Below, in pieces: positions 52,486-62,545 of a stretch of 64,000 nt of DNA. Below the pieces are notes generated by a model that saw nothing but the letters and a program-made list of their open reading frames with translations, was not told the origin of the DNA and did no database searches. The stretch is from an uncultured Methanolobus sp. (lineage in GTDB: Archaea > Halobacteriota > Methanosarcinia > Methanosarcinales > Methanosarcinaceae): the NCBI GenBank assembly GCA_963675495.1, contig OY776215.1, positions 2,720,001-2,784,000 on the forward strand, read 5' to 3'. Each line of letters opens with the position of its first letter. The first letter of the stretch is position 1. The position numbers and the translations under genes are program-made.

Positions 52486-53799
52486 TTATTTTTTAATTCC
52501 AGTGTAACTGGATGATCCAAATCCCAGATCAATGATCTTATTTCTGGAAATCATTATTGAAATGACGTTTTTAGCTCCGTTGATGCTCAATCCTGTCCTT
52601 TCAGCTAGATCTTCAGCATCAAATGAATCCTTTTGCTCGATAAGGGATGAAATTTCATTTTCAAGAGTTACGTAGGTGTCTAAATTGTGCCATACTTTAA
52701 GCTGGTCTGCATGTTCCACGTTTTTATTAAATAGTACTTCGCCTGTTTCAAGATCATAGAGATAGAGAATCAGTCGAGGGTGAATATAATTTTGTGACCA
52801 GACTTTAATGTCATTTTTCCACTCTGAATTCAAAAGACAAATACTTTTATGTTGACCTTTTGGAACTACGTCTGCTTCTCTTTGCACGAACTGCATCATA
52901 GTTCTTACATCCTCAAATGGATGCCAGCAAGTCTCAAACGTGAGGAGGGGTTTCAAAACAGTATCCATTATGCTTCCGGAAATGAATTTCTCGGATTTGT
53001 TTATTTTCCATTTTCTATCTCCGATGTAGTCCCCATTTAGTGATATTTCGGGCTGGCATGCAGAATATTTGTGTTCCAGTACGTTCATGTAATTATAAAG
53101 TCTCGAAAGTACTTCCGTATCGATGCTTTCCTCTGAAGTTCTCTCGATTTGACCTGAAACAAATCTTTCCGAACTCATTGAAGGTGCCAATATATTTTTT
53201 GAGAGTTTTGAAGATCCAGATGATTTTCCTATGGTATCTACCAGGGATGGTGCTGAAGTCTCATCATCAGTTTCAATTGGAATCTGTTTCTTGCCGGAAA
53301 TCAAACGTTCTGAGCTGTTTAATTCCATTTGTTTTAGTTTGAATTCTTTAAGAAGATTCTTGTCTACAATAATGCGCTGCTCAATATCTTTTTTGAAGTT
53401 GTCAAGAAGATCTTCCAACAGAAAAATGTCAATCGTTCCTGTTGAACTGACCAGTGAAGAGAAAATTTCTTTCAATTTGGCAGAGTCCTCCAACAAGTTG
53501 TCTTCTTTCCTGTAAAAATCCTCCAGTGTACCCTCTCTGCCAGAAAACCCATCAAGCTCTTTGTTTTTTATATCTGAAAGAAGCTGGGATACATTTGTCC
53601 TGATATTGCGAAGCTGAAAATTGATCTCTGTAGCTTTTTGTGCATAAGTTCGCTGAATAAGTTTTTCAACAGAGCTATAAACATCGTTCAGGTTCTTGAT
53701 TACAATTTGCCGATTATTCTGTTCCAGAGCTTCGGGGTCTTTTAACACTTCCATCTTAATCTTTTCCTGATTATTTAGACCATAGTCAACTTTGTTCAC
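52486..53799 (-). CDS. Hypothetical protein: N-terminal helical/coiled-coil region, alpha/beta domain, C-terminal winged helix
   Basis: C-terminal FDAEDLAERTGLSINGAKNVISIMISRNKIIDLGFG wHTH-like pattern; start uncertain (GTG 53799 or ATG 53754). Confidence 0.7.
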   Translation of the reverse strand: MNKVDYGLNNQEKIKMEVLKDPEALEQNNRQIVIKNLNDVYSSVEKLIQRTYAQKATEINFQLRNIRTNVSQLLSDIKNKELDGFSGREGTLEDFYRKEDNLLEDSAKLKEIFSSLVSSTGTIDIFLLEDLLDNFKKDIEQRIIVDKNLLKEFKLKQMELNSSERLISGKKQIPIETDDETSAPSLVDTIGKSSGSSKLSKNILAPSMSSERFVSGQIERTSEESIDTEVLSRLYNYMNVLEHKYSACQPEISLNGDYIGDRKWKINKSEKFISGSIMDTVLKPLLTFETCWHPFEDVRTMMQFVQREADVVPKGQHKSICLLNSEWKNDIKVWSQNYIHPRLILYLYDLETGEVLFNKNVEHADQLKVWHNLDTYVTLENEISSLIEQKDSFDAEDLAERTGLSINGAKNVISIMISRNKIIDLGFGSSSYTGIKK

Positions 53800-53865
53800 A
53801 TATAAATTTTTATAACTGTCAATTGGATGTTCTATATTTAATAATTGGGAGGTTAATATACATAT

Positions 53866-55131
53866 TCATACTACCTCGTGTGTTCCAAGGTCAATGGGCT
53901 CTTGCTGGCAAAGAATCTCATTCACCTCAAAGGAGAAATTGAGATTGCCAAGATCTATCTTTCCAGCACTAATCGGTTTTATTGCAAGGGATGTATATGC
54001 CGATGCATGTGGCTGTATTTCAGGTATGCAAGTGCCAGTATTATGACATTCTATAAAGGAAGAGAAGCAGCTATTGAAGCAAACATTGCTGACAATCTCA
54101 TCAGATATGTTCTCTACATAAATACTCAATGTGTTACCAACTTCACAGTATAGTGTTTCGGGGACATTGACCTTTACTTTTACATCAGGGATTCCTATGT
54201 GTTGCTCTCCAAAAGCCACCGGTCCTATCTTGCAATTGTTGCCACCCAAGGTAAATAGAATTTCAAAATATCCAATGTCCAATGTACCTGGAATTGTTGG
54301 CATGACCTGATATGTAACACTATAAGATGAACCAGGAGTCATATTTTTTGTATCTGAAAACGCCGTATCATATTTTAGTCCTTCTGGGAAAGAAGACATT
54401 ATATGCAGATTCGTCAGGTCAACATTTAATGTATTTTTCATTTTAACAGAGATTGTAGAACTATGCCCTAATCGAAGCTCTTCCAGAATCTCAATGTTCA
54501 ATCCAAAGTATGAGTGAACAATGTCAATATTTCCGAAAAATATTGGAGATTTTTGGTGTTTGTTATTGTTAATCTCAAGGTAAAGGTCACAATAGCCTGT
54601 GGATACGTTTCCTGCTAGTAGAGGTATAAAAGAGAAAGACGACGGTACTGAAGACATTGGTTCAAGGTCACCAAGATTCAAAATAGGTTTATCACATCGA
54701 ATAGTTCCCGGGAATACTGCTCTTATCCATATATTCTCTATCCTTTTTTCAGTGGGGTTATTTACCCTGAAGAAAAGCATATTATTAAATCCCAGCTCAG
54801 CAGGTTCTGTAAATTTATATTCCAGGTTTACAGAATCTACAACCTGTAATTCTTTAACTCTTCTTCTTTCAATGCCGACCTTCTTTTCGTATGTCCAGAA
54901 AATGTAGATTATGGTATAAAGAAGAAAAATGTATATCGGTGCACTGGCAACATATACCAGGTCAAGTTTATTGTTAATAGATAGTATGAGACTAACAATA
55001 AGGTATGTGGAAAGCACGATCCATAAGAACGCATATGCCTGGAAAAAAAGTCCAGTCCTGCCCCCTGCTTTGTTCTGAAGCGCATGGGAGAGTGATTTAA
55101 ATATATCCTCCAGAGGTCCAAACTTCATCAA
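53866..55131 (-). CDS. 2-TM membrane protein with three tandem Ig-like beta-sandwich repeats
   Basis: Three repeats with N....i.Ni.....F...i.c..........P...G.i.lG.......n......pi.lG pattern. Confidence 0.75.
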   Translation of the reverse strand: MMKFGPLEDIFKSLSHALQNKAGGRTGLFFQAYAFLWIVLSTYLIVSLILSINNKLDLVYVASAPIYIFLLYTIIYIFWTYEKKVGIERRRVKELQVVDSVNLEYKFTEPAELGFNNMLFFRVNNPTEKRIENIWIRAVFPGTIRCDKPILNLGDLEPMSSVPSSFSFIPLLAGNVSTGYCDLYLEINNNKHQKSPIFFGNIDIVHSYFGLNIEILEELRLGHSSTISVKMKNTLNVDLTNLHIMSSFPEGLKYDTAFSDTKNMTPGSSYSVTYQVMPTIPGTLDIGYFEILFTLGGNNCKIGPVAFGEQHIGIPDVKVKVNVPETLYCEVGNTLSIYVENISDEIVSNVCFNSCFSSFIECHNTGTCIPEIQPHASAYTSLAIKPISAGKIDLGNLNFSFEVNEILCQQEPIDLGTHEVV

Positions 55132-55193
55132 AATCGCCTATCTATGAGTGAATAGTTAGTTTATGGAAGTTTAATTATAAATATATTATTGAA

Positions 55194-56936
55194 TTAATTG
55201 TCTTGTATGGTCTTTGTGCCACATTCACTGCAAAAGTTTGCACCTTGAACTATTTTTGAACCGCATGAAGGACAATAATTAGCCATAAACTCTGATTTTT
55301 GTATCACACTATCCTCCACAACAACATCATCCGTACAATTTCCATTAAGGCCACATGAGTTTAACAGGTTGCTGCGCTGGATTATGGAATCCTTTATGGT
55401 TACATTTACAACCTGCTTAACATTGCTTTTTCCATTCGAATTAGATTTCATCTCCCTGCAAAGTTCGCGACCGAATTCTGCAAGCATGCCTACAAGTGAC
55501 TCTGCGGTTCGTGTTGCACCAAAAAGTTCGATACTCCCAGTCTCTTCAGAAATTGTGATCTTCAGGATAATATCATGATCATTAACCTTTGTCTTGCCAT
55601 AATACCAGGTTTCATAATGATTCCCATCTTTGTTTCTCAAAGTCCTAACATGCCTCACATCATGACGCTGAACCATCTCGCGACATATGTTCATAAGGGT
55701 TGCAGTGTCAAAGTCTGATCTCATTTGGTATACTTTACTATCCCTGAAAGGTAGCGCAGACAAAAGTTCTTTAAGAATTCCTATATTGATATCAGAACCT
55801 GTTTTCATGATCGGGCATGTCACTGCAATTCTTTTTGGTTTCATCTCTGTGTTCAGTAGTTTCCCTTTCGCATCCTTGTAGAATATTCTGCATTTTATCT
55901 CAGAGGACTTCGAACAGATGAGAGGATCAAAATAAATCATAACTGATTTTGAATTGTTGCCTTCTATGCTTCCCAGTAGTAATCTGTCATTTTTTACTGA
56001 GTACATTGGTTCAAATCTGTCTATCCTGAAAAGGTGTTCATCAAAATCAAAATCCAATGCCACATCATTGACCACAAGTGTAGAGATATTGTTGACAGCC
56101 ATTTTTAAGCGGACAAAACCCTGGTAGAACTCGGTTTCCCTGAATACCTGCAGTTGAGTTGTAAATTCTGGAGCATCGCTATTCGCTGCAGGTATATTCT
56201 TTGATACTTCACAAATTCCTATATTAAGAGGTTCCTTATTGTAATAATCTCCATTGATAAGGTATGAAATATAAATTTTACCGAGATCTATATTGTCTGC
56301 GAGCCTTGGATACAGAAAAATAGCAGTATAGCCGGAAGAACCTGCATTTACAACGTCAATACTTACAACGTTTTCTTCACAGCGAACGAGGCGTGAGCAC
56401 TCCGCCCTTATTGAGATGTTGGTTATTGGTATGTCTGAAGGGTTTATTATGGTTATCTTTACTGGGTTTTCTGTTTCTGCTTTCAAAGGTTGTTGTATGT
56501 CTACAACAACATTGACTGCTTCACTTATCCGTTTTTCATGATTGAGTTTATTGGCCCTTTTGATTTCATTTTCAGCATTAGTTTCTTTTATGGTTTTTCG
56601 GATTCTGGAACCTGATCTAAGTGCAACAAGAGGGCAGACAAAAATTGCGATTAAAGGAGCGGGTTCGAATGAAGAGAACACCAAAGCACCGAATATTGCT
56701 ATTATGGCTCCTGCAAAAACTGCATGGGAGAGAATGTTATCTTCATTTTTTCTATTCGTAGAATTTCCGTTAATGGCTTTTGGAATAACATATGCAGTGG
56801 TAGCTGCAAGTACAACCCCTATCATTCCGCCTGCTATAACATGTGGGAATCCTCCTCCGAGGCCAAAGAAGAGGCCTATGTAAATACCTATACGCAGGTT
56901 GTCACGGGGGTCTAAATATGACCATTTAAAAGTCAT
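55194..56936 (-). CDS. Multi-TM protein with Ig-like, coat-appendage-like and zinc-ribbon domains
   Basis: About 4 N-terminal TM helices; beta-sandwich + platform region paralogous to 60402..61919; C-terminal CPSCG..CSECG. Confidence 0.75.
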   Translation of the reverse strand: MTFKWSYLDPRDNLRIGIYIGLFFGLGGGFPHVIAGGMIGVVLAATTAYVIPKAINGNSTNRKNEDNILSHAVFAGAIIAIFGALVFSSFEPAPLIAIFVCPLVALRSGSRIRKTIKETNAENEIKRANKLNHEKRISEAVNVVVDIQQPLKAETENPVKITIINPSDIPITNISIRAECSRLVRCEENVVSIDVVNAGSSGYTAIFLYPRLADNIDLGKIYISYLINGDYYNKEPLNIGICEVSKNIPAANSDAPEFTTQLQVFRETEFYQGFVRLKMAVNNISTLVVNDVALDFDFDEHLFRIDRFEPMYSVKNDRLLLGSIEGNNSKSVMIYFDPLICSKSSEIKCRIFYKDAKGKLLNTEMKPKRIAVTCPIMKTGSDINIGILKELLSALPFRDSKVYQMRSDFDTATLMNICREMVQRHDVRHVRTLRNKDGNHYETWYYGKTKVNDHDIILKITISEETGSIELFGATRTAESLVGMLAEFGRELCREMKSNSNGKSNVKQVVNVTIKDSIIQRSNLLNSCGLNGNCTDDVVVEDSVIQKSEFMANYCPSCGSKIVQGANFCSECGTKTIQDN

Positions 56937-56940
56937 AGAA

Positions 56941-58104
56941 TCACTTTTTCAGCAGTTCGGAAAAAACATCTTCTTCACCGGTCTTCTGGATTGAAGTTCT
57001 GGCTTCTATATACCAGCTGACGATGGAAGGCTTTCTTTTCTGTAATACGGTTTCGAAGTCCCGTAGTTTTATCTTTCTTGGTTCGCCGCCTCTTAAAGCC
57101 TCTCCAAGGGGGATGTCTGCAGCTTCCTTACATATGGCTGCCAGATCTGCACCGGAATAAGAATTTGTGATCGTAGCCAGGTACTTTATATCGAGATCAT
57201 CATCAATGGGCCGCTTTTTCAAATGTATATTTAGAATCGCTATCCTTGCATCCATATCTGGTTCAGGAACAAAGACAAGTTTGCTGAAACGCCCCGGGCG
57301 TCTCAGGGCAGGATCGATGGCCCATGGTTCATTTGTGGCTGCAAGCACCAGAAGATCATCGGAATCAGTATCCACGCCATCCATTTGTGCTAACAGTTCG
57401 TTTACAACTCTCTTTGCATAGTCTTCACTTTCGCTGCGTCTTCCGGCAATGGAATCAATTTCATCAAAAAAGATAATAGACCTGTTTCCCTGACGGGCAA
57501 TGTCAAAGACCTGTTTGACATTCTTTTCCGAAGCACCCACCCATTTACTTACAATACTGCTGGTCTTGACGCTGATGAACTCCGCCCCGCATTCTTTTGC
57601 AGCCGCTTTTGCCATCATGGTCTTGCCACAACCCGGGGGACCATAGAGTAAAATTCCCTCTCCGGCCTTTTGACCGTACATATTGTAGAGTTCCTTATGT
57701 GTGAAAGGGTAGATTATAGCTTTCCGTATTTCCTCTTTTACCTGTTCAAGCCCGCCGATGTCTGGAAAACCAATATCAGGCATTTCTTTGAGAAACACAT
57801 CATCTTTTGAAAGAGAAGACTCATCGTTGCTTCCGGAATTCTTCCTGGTCTGGTTATTCCCGTCAGAAGACAAAACAGCGGAACCTTTTTTTAGTGCCTG
57901 GGCTCTGGCAAACAGATGTTCTGCAAGGTCGCGCTGGGTATTGCGGTCAATAGAATCGCCAGGTATGGTGGAAGCATCATTATAGAGCTTGGCAGCTTTG
58001 AGGTATAATTCACGTGCCCTTTCAGATTCTCCTCTGTCTTCCAGGTCTTTTGCAGCTTTTGCATATCCTCGGGCCTGGGCAGCAAATGTTATGGCTGAGT
58101 TCAA
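56941..58104 (-). CDS. MIT-domain AAA+ ATPase, Vps4/CdvC-like
   Basis: N-terminal three-helix A..A...E..G....A..LY..A MIT pattern; single AAA module with GPPGCGKT, SKWVG, FFDEID and ATNEPW; TTG start. Confidence 0.85.
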   Translation of the reverse strand: MNSAITFAAQARGYAKAAKDLEDRGESERARELYLKAAKLYNDASTIPGDSIDRNTQRDLAEHLFARAQALKKGSAVLSSDGNNQTRKNSGSNDESSLSKDDVFLKEMPDIGFPDIGGLEQVKEEIRKAIIYPFTHKELYNMYGQKAGEGILLYGPPGCGKTMMAKAAAKECGAEFISVKTSSIVSKWVGASEKNVKQVFDIARQGNRSIIFFDEIDSIAGRRSESEDYAKRVVNELLAQMDGVDTDSDDLLVLAATNEPWAIDPALRRPGRFSKLVFVPEPDMDARIAILNIHLKKRPIDDDLDIKYLATITNSYSGADLAAICKEAADIPLGEALRGGEPRKIKLRDFETVLQKRKPSIVSWYIEARTSIQKTGEEDVFSELLKK

Positions 58105-58155
58105 ATACGCACCCCTGATACGAACTTAATACAGTTCAGAAAATAAGATACAGGA

Positions 58156-58725
58156 TTATTCAGTATCTGCCATCTCTGATTCTATCTTCCTGGAAAGTTC
58201 ATCCTTTTCAGGTTCTTCACTTGATAGTTCTGCAAGTAGCTCCGATCTGAGTGAATCCTGCATTTCAGAGAGTTCATTCCCACCACTCATTGCTGCATCC
58301 ATGGAGGATGTCATCATATTTGTTGCCGTGTTCACCTTTTCCATAGAGGTTCTTATGTTTGTTACAGCACCTTCGAGTTTATTGGTATCAAAGCCAAGCT
58401 GTTTCTGCCATTTTCCCAGATCTTCGCCAATTTCAACAACTTCCTTAAGACCGGTTTGCATCTCAATTACATCGGTCATGGATTGTGCCATCTCTACCAT
58501 ACTACTAATGGTGTTGACCTGTCCTTCAACAAGGGAATGTCTTCTCGATGCTACCCTGAACTCTCTGTCGTTTCCATTTGCAAGAGCTTCTTTTGCCTGT
58601 TCCCTGGATTTCTGTTGCTTTTTTATGAGTTCCTTTTCACGGCTTGTGAGTCTTTGCTCTGAAATGCTAAGTTTTGTTTTCAGCTCTTCGGGCGATACCT
58701 TCTTAAATGGATTCTTTAATGCCAT
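58156..58725 (-). CDS. Snf7/ESCRT-III (CdvB/CHMP-like) protein
   Basis: 189 aa, predicted helical, basic N-half and acidic C-half; AKEALANGN hairpin turn; C-terminal DELSRKIESEM; directly upstream of the MIT-AAA gene. Confidence 0.78.
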   Translation of the reverse strand: MALKNPFKKVSPEELKTKLSISEQRLTSREKELIKKQQKSREQAKEALANGNDREFRVASRRHSLVEGQVNTISSMVEMAQSMTDVIEMQTGLKEVVEIGEDLGKWQKQLGFDTNKLEGAVTNIRTSMEKVNTATNMMTSSMDAAMSGGNELSEMQDSLRSELLAELSSEEPEKDELSRKIESEMADTE

Positions 58726-58880
58726 TACAATTCCTCTTCCATTCTTTTCTGCTTTGCATATCGTATACACAGTTTCATAGCTTCAGATTTATTGATAGCT
58801 ATTCCCATTTCTACTAATGTATCCAGATATAGTTTACTGTCTTCTGAGATTCTTGCACTCACCGGGTAAGAATTAGCCAT
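58725..58880 (-). CDS. Ribbon-helix-helix (CopG/Arc-like) regulator, 51 aa, not in ORF track
   Basis: MANSYPVSARISEDSKLYLDTLVEMGIAINKSEAMKLCIRYAKQKRMEEEL; TAATG overlap with the ESCRT-III start. Confidence 0.78.
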   Translation of the reverse strand: MANSYPVSARISEDSKLYLDTLVEMGIAINKSEAMKLCIRYAKQKRMEEEL

Positions 58881-59003
58881 TGTTATTCCAACTTTACGTT
58901 GATTTGTATGCTTATGTATACAATGGAAAACAATATATATAATACTTCCTCAATACCTAAATAGAAGTAAAAATCAAACATTGATAAAAAAGGTGTTAAG
59001 ATT
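58881..59003. promoter_or_regulatory. Divergent promoter region of the ESCRT-like cluster
   Basis: AT-rich spacer with AATATATATAAT near 58932 between divergent starts. Confidence 0.5.
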
Positions 59004-60296
59004 ATGGCATTCAAATGGAAAAGAGAATCAGATGATATTGCCAGGGTGGTTCCTAAAAAAGAGGTTGGGGGTTTTTTCAGTAAAGCAGTGATCCTCTCTC
59101 CGAATGAAAAGGCAGCCATGGTAAAGAATGGAGTTGTTGATAAAATAGTGGATAGCGGCAAATTGCATGTCGGCGGTCTTTTAAAACCAGGTAATGTTGG
59201 AAAAGATGTGGATGTTGCCCTGATGGATACGTCTCCCAAGGATCTGCAATGGACGCAATCCGAACTATGGACCAGGGATAATCAAAAAGTAGCCTGTAGT
59301 GGACTGCTTCGATTCAGGATACAGGAACCAAAACGTTTCTTCCAGATGCTCTACGCCTATACAACACCTGATAAAAAGGGAGTCAGGGCACTTTCCATAC
59401 AGGATGTATATTCTCGTCTTGAAAGTGAAGTGCTCACCCTTGTCCTTGAACCTGAGGTCAGGCAGGAAGACATAGAAAATCTCTATGGTAACAGGGACCT
59501 TCGCCTTAATATAGAGAATGAACTTGAAATGAGGGTCAGGTCCACATTATCTATGTGGGGGTTGGAAATGCTGAAATATACAGCCCAGTGGGAGCTTGGT
59601 TCTTATGGAAAGGTTATGCAGGCGACCAATGATTTCCAGACCAAGGAAGAACTTGCTGAGCTTGATACTCTTGCAACAGAAGGGTATTCTGAACGCAGGG
59701 GAAGGGAAGAAGTTGCAGAAATGCGCGCCGGTCATGCAGCAATTTCAACAGAAAAGGATTTTCAGCGTAATCAAAAACTGGGGGATGTTAAATCTGAGCT
59801 TGAGATCGAAAGGTTGCAACATGAAGCAGACATGCGGGAAGCAAGGGAAGCAATCGGCCTTAAAGAAGAATTAAAACTTGCAAAGGCACGGGGCATGCGA
59901 GTGGAGCTTGAAGTCGAACAGGACATGAAAGACCGTGATCATGGTCGTGATATGGAATACCTGAAACATATTACAGAAGCTGGCGGAACTGATGTTGCAA
60001 AGACTGTGAGTGAGGGTCGCGAATACGGACGTATGTCGCCGGAGCAACTGGAAGCCCTTGCAAAGGTCAAACAGAGTGAAGCTGTTGCAAAGGAAGATAA
60101 GGTTAATTTTATGATGGAAGTTGAGGACAGGGAACGCGCCGATTCATATCGAAGGCAGGAGCTTGATGCTTCTATGATGGGTGCAGCAAAGGGCAAGACT
60201 TCACCCACCGTGAGAAAATGTCCGGGCTGCGGTTCAACAATTCCTTTAGAATCAAGTTTTTGTAGTCAGTGTGGGAAGAAACTTACTGATATTTGA
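59004..60296 (+). CDS. SPFH (band 7/flotillin-like) protein with coiled coil and C-terminal zinc ribbon
   Basis: ILSPNEKAAMVKNG, TRDNQKV...LRFRI..P..F and L..WGLE SPFH pattern; E/A/R-rich coiled coil; CPGCG..CSQCG; no TM. Confidence 0.82.
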   Translation: MAFKWKRESDDIARVVPKKEVGGFFSKAVILSPNEKAAMVKNGVVDKIVDSGKLHVGGLLKPGNVGKDVDVALMDTSPKDLQWTQSELWTRDNQKVACSGLLRFRIQEPKRFFQMLYAYTTPDKKGVRALSIQDVYSRLESEVLTLVLEPEVRQEDIENLYGNRDLRLNIENELEMRVRSTLSMWGLEMLKYTAQWELGSYGKVMQATNDFQTKEELAELDTLATEGYSERRGREEVAEMRAGHAAISTEKDFQRNQKLGDVKSELEIERLQHEADMREAREAIGLKEELKLAKARGMRVELEVEQDMKDRDHGRDMEYLKHITEAGGTDVAKTVSEGREYGRMSPEQLEALAKVKQSEAVAKEDKVNFMMEVEDRERADSYRRQELDASMMGAAKGKTSPTVRKCPGCGSTIPLESSFCSQCGKKLTDI

Positions 60297-60401
60297 TACG
60301 AATTGTATGAACTTAGTTCATACTTCCTTTTTTAAGCGAAGACTAAATATCACTATGGCTAAAACAGTAAAACGGTAATATGGAAAGATAAAGGTGAAAT
60401 A

Positions 60402-61919
60402 TTGGTACAAAAGTCTTCCAAATCTCTGATCGTAATGCTTCTTGCATGCAGCATCTTTTGTCTGACTTCCGGGTTCGCATTTGCGAATGACTATGAAATT
60501 ACGCTTTCTGAAGGTGAGGTAGTAGAGATTCAGGATGGTTACTACCTGACTGTAATGGATATTGATACATATGATGAAACGGTAAGATTTGTAGTATCAT
60601 ATTATGACACCATGGTATGGGACAATTATTACCCACGAGGAGAGTATTTTTCTTATCAGGACGATTATTTGGTTCTCCAATTCAAAATTGATGATGTTTA
60701 TTATGATTCTTTTTATGGTTACGATTACTTAGTTCTCTCAGATATCTACATCTATCCTGATTATACTGTTACTTACGATGAAAATGAACATGACTGGCAA
60801 CCTGAGTACTCAACGGACTATTCAGACCACTCCGATACTTCTGCGGAAGATGAGCTATATGATATGCTTGGAATCCTTGCCATAGTTATTGTGGCAGTTT
60901 TTCTGATGCGTAAAATATCAAAGAAAAGCAAAGATAAAAAAGCTCTCAAAAAAGATAAAAAGGAGGCTACCTTTTCTCCTTCATCTGGAAAAGAAAATAC
61001 TTCAAAAACAGCTGGCAATGTCGAAGCTGGAATTGTGAAAACAGCAGCTTCAAAACGTGATCCTGTACTAGTCAAATCAGCTATCCAGTACAAAGGCGCA
61101 AATATTCTTTACAAAATAAAAGTTGAAAACGCGTCTGAAGAGCCCATGGGCGATATAACCATAAGTCTCTTTGTTCCCGAGGTCTTCCATATCAAGGATA
61201 ATCAGAAGACTATGTCTATGCTGCAGTCTGGAGAAGGAAAAACTGTAACTTTCCTGATCAGGCCAACTGGTGAGTGTGGAAATTGTATATTAGCAGGAAA
61301 CATTCGTTATTACGATTACAGCCAGAAAAAGCATGTTCAGTTCGATCTTAGTAATAAAATGGTGGATATAGTCTGTCCTGTACTTAAGATAAAAGAAGTC
61401 GATGAGGCCGAGTGGAGGCTGAAAGTCAGTTCTATGATAATTGCAGAAGAGGATACTAAGGATGTTGAAATTCCGGCTGAGAATCTTTTTGATATGGCCA
61501 CACGCATACTGAAAGATATGAACATGTTTATGATCGCACCTGAGGTAACATCCACACAGCAACTGTTCACCGGTGTGGCAAGGTTCTATGCACATGGTGT
61601 GGCTGGCCTGAAGTATGCTGCATATGTTGAAGTGGTGGGTAAACGTAAATCGAGGCTGATTGTAAAAGCCTGGGCTGAAAAGGAAGAAGCACTTACAGGT
61701 TTCTATCATAAGATCCTTGAAGAGATCGAAAAGAGAACTGATATCAAACTCTTTGTTGATGATTCCGTAACCCAGTACAATATAAGCAACACCACTATAC
61801 AGGATAGTGTGATCCAGCGCTCGAATATTGGCAGCGGTAAAAGAAAGTGTCCTCAATGCGGAAGGGAAGTTGAAGGTAGCGAAAAATTCTGTATCAATTG
61901 TGGCCGGAAGCTTGACTGA
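60402..61919 (+). CDS. Type I membrane protein with acidic ectodomain, cytoplasmic coat-appendage-like domain and zinc ribbon
   Basis: Signal peptide, Y/D-rich ectodomain, TM, Lys-rich linker, DPV...GNIRY...ILKDMNM...FYA region, CPQCG..CINCG; TTG start with AGGTG RBS. Confidence 0.78.
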   Translation: MVQKSSKSLIVMLLACSIFCLTSGFAFANDYEITLSEGEVVEIQDGYYLTVMDIDTYDETVRFVVSYYDTMVWDNYYPRGEYFSYQDDYLVLQFKIDDVYYDSFYGYDYLVLSDIYIYPDYTVTYDENEHDWQPEYSTDYSDHSDTSAEDELYDMLGILAIVIVAVFLMRKISKKSKDKKALKKDKKEATFSPSSGKENTSKTAGNVEAGIVKTAASKRDPVLVKSAIQYKGANILYKIKVENASEEPMGDITISLFVPEVFHIKDNQKTMSMLQSGEGKTVTFLIRPTGECGNCILAGNIRYYDYSQKKHVQFDLSNKMVDIVCPVLKIKEVDEAEWRLKVSSMIIAEEDTKDVEIPAENLFDMATRILKDMNMFMIAPEVTSTQQLFTGVARFYAHGVAGLKYAAYVEVVGKRKSRLIVKAWAEKEEALTGFYHKILEEIEKRTDIKLFVDDSVTQYNISNTTIQDSVIQRSNIGSGKRKCPQCGREVEGSEKFCINCGRKLD

Positions 61920-62104
61920 GGTAGTTAAAGGTAGTGTTTCCTGTTTATATATGGTGGGAATCCTGTATCTCTGTCATTCATTTTTATTTTTGTAATTTTA
62001 ACAGTCAACCATTAACTCTAAATAATATAATACGGAAATAACATTCCTTGCATGCTGATTTAAAGAAAGCATATAATTTTTCGAATCACAATAGGAGGTA
62101 TCGG

Positions 62105-62545
62105 ATGAGACTGGAATTTATGGAGAAAAAATCAAGATTTGATGAATTTGAACAGGAATATCGTCACTCAAAGGCATACCTTCGCAGAGCAAGACAGTTC
62201 CAGAAAGAAGGGCAGAATCACAGTGTTGTATTCAACGTGTCCTCACTTGCGCTTGAACGTTATCTAGTTGCTTTGTGCTACTTGTATGACACGGAACCCT
62301 TTAATCACAATTACGCCAGTCTGATGGATACTGTGGAAAAGATTGTTGAAGTTCCTGTAGAATTGAACAAAGAGATTAGGTCTCTGGATGAGATATTCGG
62401 TATTTGTTCTATTGACGATTATTATCATGGTGAACCTGAGCTATCCGATACTGATAGGATTCTGTCAATGTGCGATTCAGTTGAGGGATTGTTCGATCAG
62501 GAAAAGATATCCTCAATTAGAGATTCTTTAGAGGAATGTGAATGA
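62105..62545 (+). CDS. HEPN-like domain protein
   Basis: AYLRRARQF..VVFNVSSLALERYLVAL..P.NHN pattern; AGGAGG RBS. Confidence 0.6.
   Translation: MRLEFMEKKSRFDEFEQEYRHSKAYLRRARQFQKEGQNHSVVFNVSSLALERYLVALCYLYDTEPFNHNYASLMDTVEKIVEVPVELNKEIRSLDEIFGICSIDDYYHGEPELSDTDRILSMCDSVEGLFDQEKISSIRDSLEECE

What the first reader, a model, noticed from the sequence alone, without database searches (positions are those of the whole stretch)
52486..61919. Candidate ESCRT-III/Vps4 + SPFH + coat-appendage membrane-remodelling system in a methanogen
Seen: eight genes in two divergent units. The minus unit is RHH regulator - Snf7-like protein - MIT-AAA ATPase - TM/Ig/appendage/Zn-ribbon protein - TM/3xIg protein - wHTH protein. 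The plus unit is SPFH/Zn-ribbon protein - receptor-like TM/appendage/Zn-ribbon protein. Shared domains and motifs tie the two units together. Established: ESCRT-III/Vps4 are characterised in eukaryotes, Asgard and TACK archaea, while Methanosarcinales divide with FtsZ. PspA-type ESCRT-III relatives co-occur with SPFH proteins (e.g. Bacillus subtilis pspA-ydjGHI). Inference: a self-regulated accessory module in which membrane receptors with coat-like cytoplasmic domains and an SPFH scaffold recruit an ESCRT-III polymer that the ATPase recycles. Possible roles are vesicle release, membrane repair or antiviral response. Comparative surveys have noted scattered Snf7/Vps4 pairs outside TACK/Asgard, so the degree of novelty must be checked.
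Basis: partly seen in the sequence, partly recalled or inferred. Interest (0 to 1): 0.95.

Follow-up and report, generated by a model that had tools for sequence, protein, structure and literature searches.

The report
Known archaeal ESCRT-adaptin gene cluster
This is a real, conserved gene cluster for an ESCRT-type membrane-remodelling machine in a methanogen, with coat-like receptors and a scaffold protein, but a 2024 comparative study already described this class of system.

Summary
Window 52486-61919 carries eight genes in two divergent units, and the domain calls were confirmed with tools. The 189-aa protein is an ESCRT-III relative: a family profile hits solved SNF7, Asgard ESCRT-IIIB, CHMP1B and CdvB. 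The ATPase is a catalytically intact single-AAA protein with an N-terminal MIT domain. The 505-aa receptor has a cytoplasmic COPI/AP2-type appendage (Foldseek E 1e-11), and the 580-aa protein shares it. The 430-aa protein is SPFH plus a zinc ribbon. The RHH and winged-helix calls are only weakly supported. The cluster is syntenic in Methanosarcinaceae and Methanoperedens relatives. It is patchy: 52 of 284 genomes of the order. The genome has two FtsZ genes, so the cluster is accessory. This combination was published as the 'Meth_adaptin' ESCRT class by Makarova et al. 2024 (mBio, PMC10936438; passages read), so the finding is already known as a computational prediction; I found no experimental work on it. 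New details: ProX is not a conserved part (1 of 62 loci), the receptors swap ectodomains around a constant appendage, and the TM/3xIg gene survives where the core is lost.

The parts
52486..53799 (-). g1: soluble 437-aa protein. It has an N-terminal helical region (~1-170), a variable linker, a conserved middle domain (~230-375) and a C-terminal winged-helix-like ~60 aa. It is a candidate ESCRT-II-like adaptor (inference).
   Evidence: No Pfam family. The alignment of 17 orthologues shows the domain layout. There are only weak winged-helix-type hits: SelB wH and AsnC at E~1, PCI at 0.09, and Atlas wHTH clusters at 0.75-0.77. It is present in 30 of 38 related loci.
53866..55131 (-). g2: membrane protein with two N-terminal TM segments and three Ig-like repeats. 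Its link to the system is loose.
   Evidence: Transglut_C 7.7e-8, TRAPPC13_C 7.5e-6 (below that family's cut-off: 26.4 bits against 27.9, with no single stretch passing), BatD 0.006. TM segments at 34-52 and 59-77. Three repeats match the g3 Ig domain. It is present in 14 of 38 related loci. It is retained in 5 of 5 same-genus genomes that lack the ESCRT core.
55194..56936 (-). g3: 580-aa membrane protein. It has 2-3 TM segments, an Ig-like domain (141-244), an appendage-like region (270-~500), two DSxIQ(R/K)S motifs and a C-terminal zinc ribbon. It is a variable component.
   Evidence: hhalign of the g3 family against the g8 family gives probability 98.1, E 1.1e-13 over 253 columns. Zn_Ribbon_1 3.5e-7. 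TM segments. It is full-length in 6 of 12 same-genus loci and present in 15 of 38 related loci.
56941..58104 (-). [quoted passage not shown] The catalytic motifs are intact.
   Evidence: AAA 5.4e-45 and AAA_lid_3. The NCBIfam CdvC model is matched end to end at 240 bits, below the equivalog cut-off of 650. It is the best CdvC-model match in its genome and the only one that covers the MIT part. MIT in 19 of 19 orthologues. The MIT profile hits calpain-7 MIT at 1.3e-4. GPPGCGKT, DE, TN and RR are invariant in 19 orthologues. Vps4_C is weak at 0.0087.
58156..58725 (-). g5: 189-aa ESCRT-III (Snf7/CdvB superfamily) protein. It is the only such gene in the genome.
   Evidence: The AF2 model has pLDDT 76 and helices 12-49, 53-110, 115-146, 152-169 and 176-188. 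Best Foldseek matches are CdvB, Asgard ESCRT-IIIB, CdvB2, CHMP1B and the Snf7 core, all at E>=0.07. The family profile against PDB gives SNF7 5.8e-7, ESCRT-IIIB 1e-6 and CdvB 2.4e-4. Pfam Snf7 matches 24 of 30 relatives. It is single-copy in the genome.
58728..58880 (-). g6: 51-aa, very conserved small protein. It is a probable ribbon-helix-helix DNA binder, and its stop codon overlaps the g5 start codon (TAATG).
   Evidence: Mean identity is 87% over 15 orthologues. RHH_1 in 7 of 15 (best 0.0016) and RelB in 9 of 15. NCBIfam AbmR C-terminal part 1.6e-6. The overlap was read. It is present in 35 of 38 related loci.
58881..59003 (.). Divergent promoter region between g6 and g7. It holds an invariant block with the palindrome TGTATACA next to an A/T-rich TATA-like stretch (about 58915-58947). 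The palindrome is a candidate operator for g6.
   Evidence: Alignment of 11 same-genus intergenic regions: columns 35-67 are almost fully invariant while the flanks vary. That it acts as an operator or promoter is inference.
59004..60296 (+). g7: SPFH (Band 7) domain (30-190), a long charged helical region and a C-terminal zinc ribbon. No TM segment is predicted.
   Evidence: Band_7 5.5e-7, above the cut-off. It matches in 19 of 19 orthologues, best 8.2e-13. No hydrophobic segment was found. It is present in 33 of 38 related loci.
60402..61919 (+). g8: type-I receptor-like protein. It has a signal/TM segment (4-20), an extracellular beta-sandwich (33-118), a TM helix (149-178), a cytoplasmic adaptin/COPI-type appendage (Ig 222-330 plus platform 335-446), a DSVIQRS motif and a zinc ribbon (481-505).
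   Evidence: AF2 model. Foldseek against PDB: COPI appendage 9qpq_H 1e-11, 1pzd 2.8e-10, AP2 beta2 1e42 2.2e-8, AP2 alpha 1w80 1.1e-7, each over 240-250 columns. The cytoplasmic part is conserved while the ectodomain is swapped between lineages.
62048..62545 (+). g9: HEPN-domain protein just downstream. It is a frequent neighbour but probably not part of the system.
   Evidence: HEPN 8.4e-5. It is present in 8 of 12 same-genus loci and 7 of 38 related loci. It is also kept in genomes that lack the core.

Best explanation
The cluster is a chromosomal, vertically inherited, dispensable ESCRT-type membrane-remodelling module. It belongs to the class published as 'Meth_adaptin'.

Shown here:
- an ESCRT-III protein (g5), encoded directly upstream of a catalytically intact MIT-AAA ATPase of the Vps4/CdvC type (g4);
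- an SPFH protein with a coiled-coil-like region and a zinc ribbon (g7);
- one or two membrane proteins whose cytoplasmic part is a two-lobed adaptin/COPI-type appendage followed by a zinc ribbon (g8, g3);
- a conserved soluble protein (g1) and a small DNA-binding-like protein (g6) that is translationally coupled to g5.

Inferred mechanism:
- The appendage-bearing membrane proteins act as receptors or cargo. Their ectodomains are swapped freely between lineages while the cytoplasmic handle stays constant.
- g7 forms a membrane-associated oligomeric platform.
- Together, probably through g1 and the shared zinc ribbons, they nucleate g5 polymers on the cytoplasmic face of the membrane.
- g4 binds the C-terminal helix of g5 through its MIT domain and disassembles or remodels the polymer with ATP.
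- The result is outward budding or sorting of selected membrane proteins into vesicles.
- g6 probably controls both divergent units from the conserved palindrome in the shared promoter.

The module is not the cell-division machine.
For: Identity of the parts:
- g5 is ESCRT-III.
- g4 is MIT plus AAA, with invariant Walker A/B, sensor-1 and arginine fingers, and an aromatic pore-loop residue (W, or F/Y in two distant orthologues).
- g8 has an appendage: 46 PDB fold matches at E<=1e-3, headed by COPI gamma/beta and AP2 alpha/beta2 appendages that cover both lobes.
- g3 shares the appendage.
- g7 is SPFH.

Linkage:
- The order g6-g5-g4 with divergent g7-g8 is kept in 12 of 12 same-genus loci and in other genera.
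- The g6 stop overlaps the g5 start.
- The promoter block is invariant.

Receptor reading:
- Relatives of g8 carry PEGA, CARDB, CarboxypepD_reg, PQQ or NHL ectodomains on the same cytoplasmic part.
- In one related locus a ProX solute-binding domain and another domain sit C-terminal to an N-terminal appendage.

Accessory role:
- The genome has two FtsZ genes above the cut-off.
- The g5 family occurs in 52 of 284 genomes of the order and in 20 of 36 of the genus.
- One relative has a decayed locus.

Interaction test: the MIT domain with the g5 C-terminus scored 0.35 against a best control of 0.10, verdict 'weak support'. In the tool's calibration 58 of 80 solved complexes and 2 of 110 mismatched pairs reached the mark, but at 0.60 or under only 7 of those 80 and both mismatches. 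The runs agreed in at least 89% of contacts, and the partner's pLDDT was at least 57.

Published reading: the same composition and the same inference are in Makarova et al. 2024 (passages read).
Against: - There is no functional or expression data. No RNA run was listed.
- g4 scores as well on the CDC48 (267 bits) and PAN (250 bits) models as on the CdvC model (240 bits, far below its 650 cut-off).
- Vps4_C is only a weak partial hit.
- MIT and Snf7 are below Pfam's gathering scores for the window's own proteins.
- The Foldseek E-values for g5 are not significant (>=0.07).
- One non-ESCRT coiled-coil chimera scores as high as SNF7, so helical bias contributes to that result.
- g7 has no predicted membrane anchor, and its family profile found no solved SPFH structure.
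- The roles of g1 and g6 rest on weak hits.
- g2 persists without the core, so it may not belong to the system.
- The interaction test is a textbook-type pair, and its pass is weak.
- The direction of budding and the cargo are unknown.
Confidence: 0.7

Rival explanations
1. The module is a membrane-stress or repair system rather than a sorting or budding system. In this reading g7 (SPFH) and the membrane proteins sense envelope damage and recruit g5 to seal or stabilise the membrane, as SPFH YdjI localises PspA in Bacillus subtilis. g4 then recycles the polymer.
For: SPFH and an ESCRT-III-superfamily protein are neighbours, as in pspA-ydjGHI. The analogy is drawn in the paper passages and in the review PMC7619361 (passages), which argues that repair is the primordial ESCRT-III role. 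The system is dispensable and patchy. The carriers that bear names are Methanolobus, Methanococcoides, Methanohalophilus and Methanosalsum. That these genera live in saline or marine habitats, where osmotic stress is plausible, is my recollection and comes from no call.
Against: g5 matches Snf7-type rather than PspA-type proteins. PspA and Vipp1 appear only low in the fold list and are not among the best 60 of the 96 PDB matches shown. The coat-type appendages with swapped ectodomains are hard to explain by damage sensing alone. A Vps4-type ATPase is not part of bacterial Psp systems (PMC7619361 passage).
Confidence: 0.17
2. The module is an antiviral, or virus-related, surface system. Hypervariable ectodomains would sense virions or decoy them, and ESCRT would shed infected or receptor-laden membrane as vesicles.
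For: The ectodomains of the g8 family are swapped even between close relatives. The distribution is patchy, with repeated loss. A HEPN gene lies next door in 8 of 12 same-genus loci. g4 resembles the IetA/IteA defence ATPase at the level of the AAA domain.
Against: No component other than the generic AAA domain matches any PADLOC model. The locus sits in one conserved chromosomal slot between rpS6e and PNPOx across several genera, not in a variable island. HEPN persists without the system.
Confidence: 0.07
3. The cluster is a cell-division (Cdv-like) machine, or a back-up for one.
For: ESCRT-III and Vps4 homologues divide Sulfolobales. Some Thermoplasmata that lack FtsZ may use them for division (paper passages).
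Against: The genome has two FtsZ genes above the cut-off. The g5 family is missing from 16 of 36 genomes of the same genus and from 232 of 284 genomes of the order. The locus encodes only one ESCRT-III paralogue and nothing that I recognised as CdvA.
Confidence: 0.02
4. This is not an ESCRT system at all. A CDC48-type AAA unfoldase and an unrelated coiled-coil protein happen to be linked to surface-protein genes.
For: The window's own proteins score below Pfam's cut-offs for Snf7 and MIT. g4 scores at least as well on the CDC48 and PAN models. Helical proteins give unreliable similarity scores.
Against: Twelve of the 14 best PDB matches of the family profile are ESCRT-III proteins aligned end to end. 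Snf7 is the only Pfam family that recurs among relatives. MIT is found in 19 of 19 orthologues. The gene order, ESCRT-III directly upstream of the ATPase, is the archaeal ESCRT signature (paper passage).
Confidence: 0.04

Closest known systems
'Meth_adaptin' archaeal ESCRT systems (Makarova, Tobiasson, Wolf, Lu, Liu, Zhang, Krupovic, Li, Koonin 2024, mBio 15:e00335-24; PMC10936438; outline and passages read, figures and supplements not seen)
   Same: The composition matches: a Vps4-like ATPase, an ESCRT-III gene upstream of it, two proteins with an adaptin appendage region (Ig plus TBP lobes), one of them with a zinc ribbon and an extra N-terminal domain, one with an ectodomain joined through a TM linker, and an SPFH protein with a coiled coil and a zinc ribbon. 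The functional inference is also the same (protein sorting or vesicles, with the PspA-YdjI parallel). A related locus (L081) has eight genes from the g3-like gene to the second appendage protein. That matches the span of the two accession numbers the paper cites.
   Different: - There is no ProX gene in this locus. The genome's OpuAC genes lie about 0.9-1.1 Mb away, and ProX was found in only 1 of 62 related loci.
- Here the main receptor is type I, with an N-terminal ectodomain and a C-terminal appendage plus zinc ribbon. In L081 the appendage is N-terminal.
- The paper's text assigns the clade to 'Methanobacteriales'. Every named locus I found is Methanosarcinales or Methanoperedens, plus one Thermoplasmata-labelled MAG and one unclassified archaeon.
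- g1, g2 and g6 are not mentioned in the passages I read. They may be in Fig. 3B or Table S2, which I could not see.
Crenarchaeal CdvABC and eukaryotic/Asgard ESCRT-III with Vps4
   Same: Both have an ESCRT-III polymer-forming protein with a five-helix core and an MIT-AAA ATPase encoded next to it. The g5 family profile aligns with SNF7, Asgard ESCRT-IIIB, CHMP1B, CdvB and CHMP3.
   Different: There is a single ESCRT-III paralogue. No CdvA, ESCRT-I or ubiquitin parts were seen. g4 is far below the CdvC equivalog cut-off. FtsZ is present. The system is dispensable within the genus.
Bacillus subtilis pspA-ydjGHI (PspA with SPFH protein YdjI), as cited in the paper passages
   Same: An ESCRT-III-superfamily protein is genetically linked to an SPFH protein and to membrane or zinc-ribbon proteins.
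   Different: g5 is Snf7-type rather than PspA-type. A Vps4-type ATPase and coat-type appendage receptors are present here and absent there.
Appendage ('ear') domains of AP2 alpha/beta2 adaptins and COPI gamma/beta subunits
   Same: The two-lobed fold, an Ig beta-sandwich plus a platform (TBP-like) lobe, is matched over 240-250 columns at E 1e-11 to 1e-6.
   Different: Here the appendage is the cytoplasmic domain of a single-pass membrane protein and is followed by a zinc ribbon. It is not the end of a HEAT-repeat trunk subunit. Sequence identity is 9-18%.

Membership tests
Meth_adaptin ESCRT system (Makarova et al. 2024) | Vps4-like ATPase with an ESCRT-III gene directly upstream | tested here: met
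   g5 lies 51 nt upstream of g4 on the same strand. The identities of both proteins rest.
Meth_adaptin ESCRT system (Makarova et al. 2024) | Two proteins with an adaptin appendage region (Ig plus TBP lobes), one of them with a zinc ribbon | tested here: met
   g8: Foldseek matches to COPI and AP2 appendages, E 1e-11 to 1e-6. g3: hhalign to the g8 family, probability 98.1, E 1.1e-13. Both carry zinc ribbons.
Meth_adaptin ESCRT system (Makarova et al. 2024) | Appendage joined to a GOLD domain through a TM linker | tested here: inconclusive
   g8 has an 86-residue beta-sandwich ectodomain joined to the appendage by a TM helix. Pfam found no GOLD match, and no GOLD structure was among the 50 listed fold matches.
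Meth_adaptin ESCRT system (Makarova et al. 2024) | SPFH protein with a coiled coil and a zinc ribbon | tested here: met
   Band_7 in 19 of 19 orthologues and a zinc ribbon in 18 of 19. The helical middle part was read from the sequence only.
Meth_adaptin ESCRT system (Makarova et al. 2024) | ProX (OpuAC) gene in the locus | tested here: not met
   The OpuAC genes of the genome lie at 1.68 and 1.84 Mb, and the cluster lies at 2.77 Mb. ProX was found in 1 of 62 related loci. I treat it as a lineage-specific cargo domain, not a defining part.
Meth_adaptin ESCRT system (Makarova et al. 2024) | ATPase falls in the Meth_adaptin clade of the Vps4 tree | not tested
   I built no tree with reference Vps4, CdvC and Cdc48. 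Indirectly, g4 is 66% identical to the ATPase of the exemplar-like locus L081.
ESCRT-III (Snf7/CdvB/CHMP superfamily) | Helical hairpin (alpha1-alpha2) followed by alpha3-alpha5 in about 170-220 aa | tested here: met
   AF2 model with helices 12-49, 53-110, 115-146, 152-169 and 176-188. The best fold matches are CdvB and ESCRT-IIIB, but at E>=0.07.
ESCRT-III (Snf7/CdvB/CHMP superfamily) | Detectable sequence homology to known members | tested here: met
   Family profile against PDB: SNF7 5.8e-7, ESCRT-IIIB 1e-6, CHMP1B 2.7e-5, CdvB 2.4e-4. Pfam Snf7 matches 24 of 30 relatives and 11 of 45 of the broader set. The window protein alone is below the cut-off (17.3 against 27.3 bits).
ESCRT-III (Snf7/CdvB/CHMP superfamily) | C-terminal MIT-interacting motif bound by the ATPase | tested here: inconclusive
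   There is a conserved C-terminal helix (L..KI..E). The complex prediction gave weak support: 0.35 against a best control of 0.10.
ESCRT-III (Snf7/CdvB/CHMP superfamily) | Polymerises on membranes | not testable with these tools
   This needs biochemistry or cryo-EM.
Vps4/CdvC ATPases | N-terminal MIT three-helix domain | tested here: met
   PF04212 in 19 of 19 orthologues (best 2.1e-6; window copy 0.0011, below the cut-off). The profile hits calpain-7 MIT at 1.3e-4 and VPS4B MIT at 0.4-1.3.
Vps4/CdvC ATPases | One active AAA+ cassette (Walker A/B, sensor 1, arginine fingers, aromatic pore loop) | tested here: met
   GPPGCGKT, DE, TN and RR are invariant in 19 sequences, and the pore-loop position is K-(W/F/Y)-x-G. 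The motif names are recalled, not taken from a call.
Vps4/CdvC ATPases | Vps4_C C-terminal helix / oligomerisation domain | tested here: inconclusive
   PF09336 E 0.0087, 16.5 bits against a cut-off of 21.3, partial match 8-45 of 61.
Vps4/CdvC ATPases | Reaches the NCBIfam CdvC equivalog score | tested here: not met
   240.5 bits against a cut-off of 650. The CDC48 (266.6) and PAN (249.5) models score similarly on the AAA part. g4 is therefore Vps4-like in architecture but is not a CdvC orthologue.
SPFH / Band 7 | SPFH domain | tested here: met
   30.2 bits against a cut-off of 23.6. It matches in 19 of 19 orthologues.
SPFH / Band 7 | N-terminal membrane anchor | tested here: not met
   No hydrophobic 19-mer reaches the threshold in g7. 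Membrane association would have to be peripheral or through partners.
CdvABC cell-division system | Universal in the lineage and replaces FtsZ | tested here: not met
   Two FtsZ genes are present. The g5 family is present in 20 of 36 genomes of the genus.
Known anti-phage defence systems (PADLOC) | Components match defence-system models | tested here: not met
   Only the AAA domain of g4 matches IetA/TRIP13 models. g5 has a marginal coiled-coil hit, and 7 of 9 proteins have none.

The most novel reading that the evidence does not exclude
The adaptin-type appendage is a portable cytoplasmic 'sorting handle'. Any surface module fused to it through one TM helix becomes a client or receptor of the ESCRT-III/Vps4/SPFH machine. 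The modules seen include a beta-sandwich, PEGA, CARDB, a PQQ propeller and, in one relative, a ProX solute-binding domain, in either membrane orientation. This would give these methanogens a receptor-specific vesicle or membrane-protein sorting pathway, a working prokaryotic counterpart of adaptor-coupled ESCRT sorting. The SPFH cage would define the budding patch. The small g6 protein would give feedback control from the shared promoter.
Probability: 0.25. Interest if true: 0.75.

Novelty: already known. Interest (0 to 1): 0.3.

Why it matters
If the predicted function is right, this system is among the most complete ESCRT-like sorting machines outside Asgard archaea and eukaryotes. Its describers argue that it resembles the ESCRT system of the last archaeal common ancestor (paper passage). 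Named species such as Methanolobus vulcani, M. bombayensis, M. profundi and Methanococcoides alaskense carry it. That such strains can be grown in the laboratory is my recollection and comes from no call. Natural carriers and non-carriers exist within one genus, which makes the hypothesis open to experiment. As a discovery claim it adds little, because the composition and the inference are in print. The useful additions here are these:
- ProX is not a conserved member.
- The receptors are modular around a constant appendage.
- The TM/3xIg gene is separable from the core.
- There is a candidate operator.
- There is a map of which relatives have lost the system.

Tried and rejected
- Single-sequence and narrow-profile searches of g5 against PDB gave only noise or weak IST1 hits. 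Only the broadened profile worked.
- The g7 family profile against PDB found no SPFH structure, only zinc-ribbon noise.
- g6 against PDB gave nothing as a single sequence and weak histone-fold hits as a profile.
- g1: Pfam found nothing. The PDB profile gave only E~1 winged-helix hits. Both Atlas calls scored below 0.9 and are leads only.
- The g8 ectodomain matched no Pfam family.
- No RNA holder was listed for the locus, so expression and co-transcription could not be examined, and read laying was not used.
- I did not build an AAA phylogeny. No reference Vps4 or CdvC sequences could be drawn from the tools, and the top PDB matches are dominated by two-domain CDC48 proteins.
- I could not link the paper's two accession numbers to sequences with the tools. 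The correspondence to L081 rests on gene count and architecture only.
- The paper's supplements (Tables S2 and S3, Fig. S6) are closed. They may list this genome and annotate g1, g2 and g6.
- The term 'Meth_adaptin' occurs in the library only in that paper and its copies.
- Cell division, a defence system and 'not an ESCRT' were considered and rejected, as set out under the rival explanations.

Full report
**What is there**

The window lies at 2,720,001-2,784,000 of a single-contig 2.87-Mb genome. The closest named relatives of its proteins are Methanolobus species. On the minus strand, in order of transcription, are g6 (51 aa), g5 (189 aa), g4 (387 aa), g3 (580 aa), g2 (421 aa) and g1 (437 aa). 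On the plus strand are g7 (430 aa) and g8 (505 aa). A HEPN gene follows.

**ESCRT-III (g5)**

The window protein alone matches Pfam Snf7 only weakly (E 0.004, 17 bits, but across 4-158 of 171 model positions). It has no significant PDB hit.

- Snf7 is the one family that recurs among relatives: 24 of 30 at E<=0.1, best 3e-5, and 11 of 45 of a broader set at E<=0.01, best 7e-7.
- An AlphaFold model built on 30 homologues (pLDDT 76) has a long hairpin and three further helices.
- Its best fold matches are S. islandicus CdvB, Asgard ESCRT-IIIB, CdvB2, CHMP1B/IST1 and the Snf7 core. None has E below 0.07.
- The decisive result came from the family profile. Searching 1.84 billion representatives found only 79 relatives. 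A profile of 45 full-length ones then hit solved ESCRT-III proteins end to end: SNF7 5.8e-7, Heimdall ESCRT-IIIB 1e-6, Loki Vps20/32/60-like 1.2e-6, CHMP1B 2.7e-5, CdvB 2.4e-4 and CHMP3 5.6e-4.
- One coiled-coil chimera scored equally high, so some helical bias is present.
- g5 is the only Snf7-like gene in the genome.

**ATPase (g4)**

g4 has one AAA cassette (5e-45) and an AAA lid.

- The NCBIfam CdvC model aligns from residue 2 to 367, but at 240 bits, far under the equivalog cut-off of 650. The CDC48 and PAN models score 267 and 250 bits on the AAA part.
- In its own genome g4 is the best CdvC-model match and the only one that covers the N-terminal part.
- The N-terminal 90 residues match Pfam MIT in 19 of 19 orthologues (best 2e-6; window copy 1e-3, below the cut-off).
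- The N-terminal profile hits the calpain-7 MIT domain (1.3e-4) and, weakly, VPS4B MIT.
- Walker A and B, sensor 1 and the arginine pair are invariant, and the pore loop keeps an aromatic residue.
- Vps4_C is a weak partial hit.

g4 is therefore Vps4-like in architecture and context. It is not a CdvC orthologue, and I did not test its position in a tree.

**Appendage receptors (g8, g3) and the Ig protein (g2)**

The g8 model (pLDDT 69 overall, 76-93 in the folded parts) has these elements:
- a signal/TM helix;
- an 86-residue beta-sandwich;
- a TM helix;
- a disordered linker;
- an Ig-like sandwich (222-330);
- an alpha/beta lobe (335-446);
- a zinc ribbon.

Foldseek against PDB gave 46 matches at E<=1e-3. 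They are headed by COPI gamma/beta appendages (1e-11 to 1e-9) and AP2 beta2 and alpha appendages (2e-8 to 3e-6), each over 240-250 columns, that is, both lobes. The 'coat-appendage' reading is thus confirmed.

The g3 family aligns to the g8 family over the appendage, the DSxIQRS motif and the zinc ribbon (hhalign probability 98, E 1e-13). g3 also has an extra Ig domain related to the three repeats of g2. Hydropathy gives two TM segments in g2, two or three in g3, two in g8 (signal plus anchor) and none in g1, g4, g5, g6 or g7.

**SPFH protein (g7), g6 and g1**

- g7 matches Band_7 above the cut-off in the window protein and in 19 of 19 orthologues, and it carries a zinc ribbon. It has no predicted anchor, and its profile found no solved SPFH structure.
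- g6 is 87% conserved on average. It has only weak RHH-type hits. Its stop codon overlaps the g5 start.
- The 123-bp divergent intergenic region holds an invariant block with an 8-bp palindrome beside a TATA-like stretch in 11 same-genus loci. This is a plausible operator and promoter, but that is inference.
- g1 has no family. Its alignment shows a helical N-terminal part, a variable linker, a conserved middle domain and a C-terminal ~60 residues that give only weak winged-helix-type hits.

**Conservation**

- A full-length g4 orthologue is present in 13 of 25 genomes of the genus in the first sample.
- All 12 fetched same-genus loci keep g6-g5-g4, the divergent g7-g8 and g1 in the same chromosomal slot. 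g3 is full-length in 6 of 12 and HEPN is present in 8 of 12.
- In 38 loci seeded on g5 from a collection of one genome per species, at 40% coverage or more, g6 occurs in 35, g7 in 33, g4 in 30, g1 in 30, g8 in 29, g3 in 15, g2 in 14 and HEPN in 7. Many misses lie at contig ends. Several Methanoperedens loci lack an adjacent ATPase.
- Across the order, the g5 family is in 52 of 284 genomes. By family the counts are 40/176, 6/20, 5/53, 0/27, 0/6 and 0/1. In the genus it is 19 of 35 besides the window's genome. The largest genus sampled has 0 of 59.
- Five same-genus genomes without the core still keep a g2-like gene in the slot, two of them with HEPN. One has fragments of g1, g3 and g8, which is a decaying locus.
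- The genome has two FtsZ genes.

The module is therefore inherited vertically, lost repeatedly, and not the division machine.

**Comparison with what is known**

Makarova et al. 2024 (PMC10936438; I read the outline and passages, not the figures or supplements) define a 'Meth_adaptin' clade of archaeal ESCRT systems. According to those passages it has these parts:
- a Vps4-like ATPase and an ESCRT-III gene;
- two adaptin-appendage proteins with Ig and TBP lobes;
- a zinc ribbon and an extra N-terminal domain on one appendage protein;
- a GOLD domain on the other, joined through a TM linker;
- an SPFH protein with a coiled coil and a zinc ribbon;
- ProX.

They propose protein sorting or vesicle formation and draw the PspA-YdjI parallel.

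The differences I found are these:
1. ProX is absent here. It occurs in 1 of 62 related loci. There it is the C-terminal half of a 628-aa protein whose N-terminal half is an appendage.
2. That locus (L081) has eight genes between its g3-like gene and a second protein with an N-terminal appendage. This matches the span of the two accession numbers in the paper.
3. The receptor family is modular. The cytoplasmic part is constant, while the ectodomains carry PEGA, CARDB, CarboxypepD_reg, PQQ or NHL domains.
4. The paper's text says 'Methanobacteriales'. The named loci I found are Methanosarcinales or Methanoperedens, with two exceptions.

Other papers, read as passages, note scattered and unexplained CdvB/CdvC pairs in Euryarchaeota (PMC8970359) and summarise ESCRT-III evolution (PMC7619361; PMC11237479). 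The term 'Meth_adaptin' occurs only in the 2024 paper and its copies. I found no experimental work on this system.

**Mechanism and rivals**

The identities and the linkage of the parts are shown. The rest is inference:
- The appendage-bearing membrane proteins and the SPFH platform recruit g5, perhaps through g1 and the zinc ribbons.
- g4 engages the g5 C-terminal helix through its MIT domain and remodels the polymer.

The single interaction test gave 'weak support'. The score was 0.35 against a best control of 0.10. In the tool's calibration 58 of 80 solved complexes and 2 of 110 mismatches reach the mark, but such low passes are more often wrong than right unless the pair was already likely. 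Contact agreement between runs was at least 89%, and the partner's pLDDT was at least 57. Because this is a textbook-type pair, the pass may reflect likeness to known complexes.

A stress or repair role is the main rival. An antiviral role is possible but has no support from PADLOC. Division is excluded as the main role.

**Verdict**

The feature is real and was read correctly, but it is already published as a computational prediction. Interest is low to moderate. Its residual value lies in the refinements listed above and in the natural set of carriers and non-carriers available for experiments.

Noticed in passing
L065-L069 (same-genus genomes without the ESCRT core), slot between rpS6e and PNPOx: Five of five genomes that lack g4 and g5 still keep a g2-like TM/3xIg gene (34-61% identity) in the same slot, two of them with the HEPN gene. 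In L067 there are fragments of g1 (17% coverage), g3 (44%) and g8 (9%), which looks like a decaying locus.
   Followed up: partly
L081:12265-14151 and L081:14252-15901: In one related locus a 628-aa protein joins an N-terminal appendage region to a C-terminal ProX-like solute-binding domain. The next gene (549 aa) also starts with an appendage. This membrane orientation is the reverse of the window's g8.
   Followed up: partly
window 60402-61919 relatives (P0116-P0210): Relatives keep the cytoplasmic appendage and zinc ribbon at 54-70% identity but carry different ectodomains: PEGA, CARDB, CarboxypepD_reg, PQQ propeller, NHL-type and S-layer-type. One relative (P0178) has a precomputed Pfam Alpha_adaptinC2 hit.
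   Followed up: partly
window 58915-58947: There is an invariant block in the g6|g7 divergent intergenic region: an 8-bp palindrome next to an A/T-rich TATA-like stretch. It is conserved in 11 same-genus loci while the flanks vary.
   Followed up: partly
window 62048-62545 (+): A HEPN-domain protein (E 8.4e-5) lies directly downstream of g8. It is present in 8 of 12 same-genus loci and persists where the ESCRT core is lost. I did not look for a partner nucleotidyltransferase.
   Followed up: partly
L057, L059, L061 (Methanoperedens-type loci): These loci have g1, g8, g7, g6 and g5 but no Vps4-like gene within the stretch fetched. In L056 the ATPase lies about 5 kb from g5, with other genes in between. 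I did not check whether the ATPase is elsewhere in those genomes.
   Followed up: no
Makarova et al. 2024, text passage on clade names: The paper's text assigns Meth_adaptin to 'Methanobacteriales'. None of the 38 related loci with record titles is from that order; they are Methanosarcinales or Methanoperedens, plus one Thermoplasmata-labelled MAG and one unclassified archaeon. This is probably a slip in the text. I did not search Methanobacteriales genomes separately.
   Followed up: partly
window 56941-58104 (g4), arginine-finger region: The region around the arginine fingers reads ALRRPGRF. As far as I recall, this is the form typical of CDC48/PAN rather than of Vps4/katanin-type ATPases. 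It fits the near-equal HMM scores for CDC48, PAN and CdvC. The motif assignment is recalled and was not tested.
   Followed up: no
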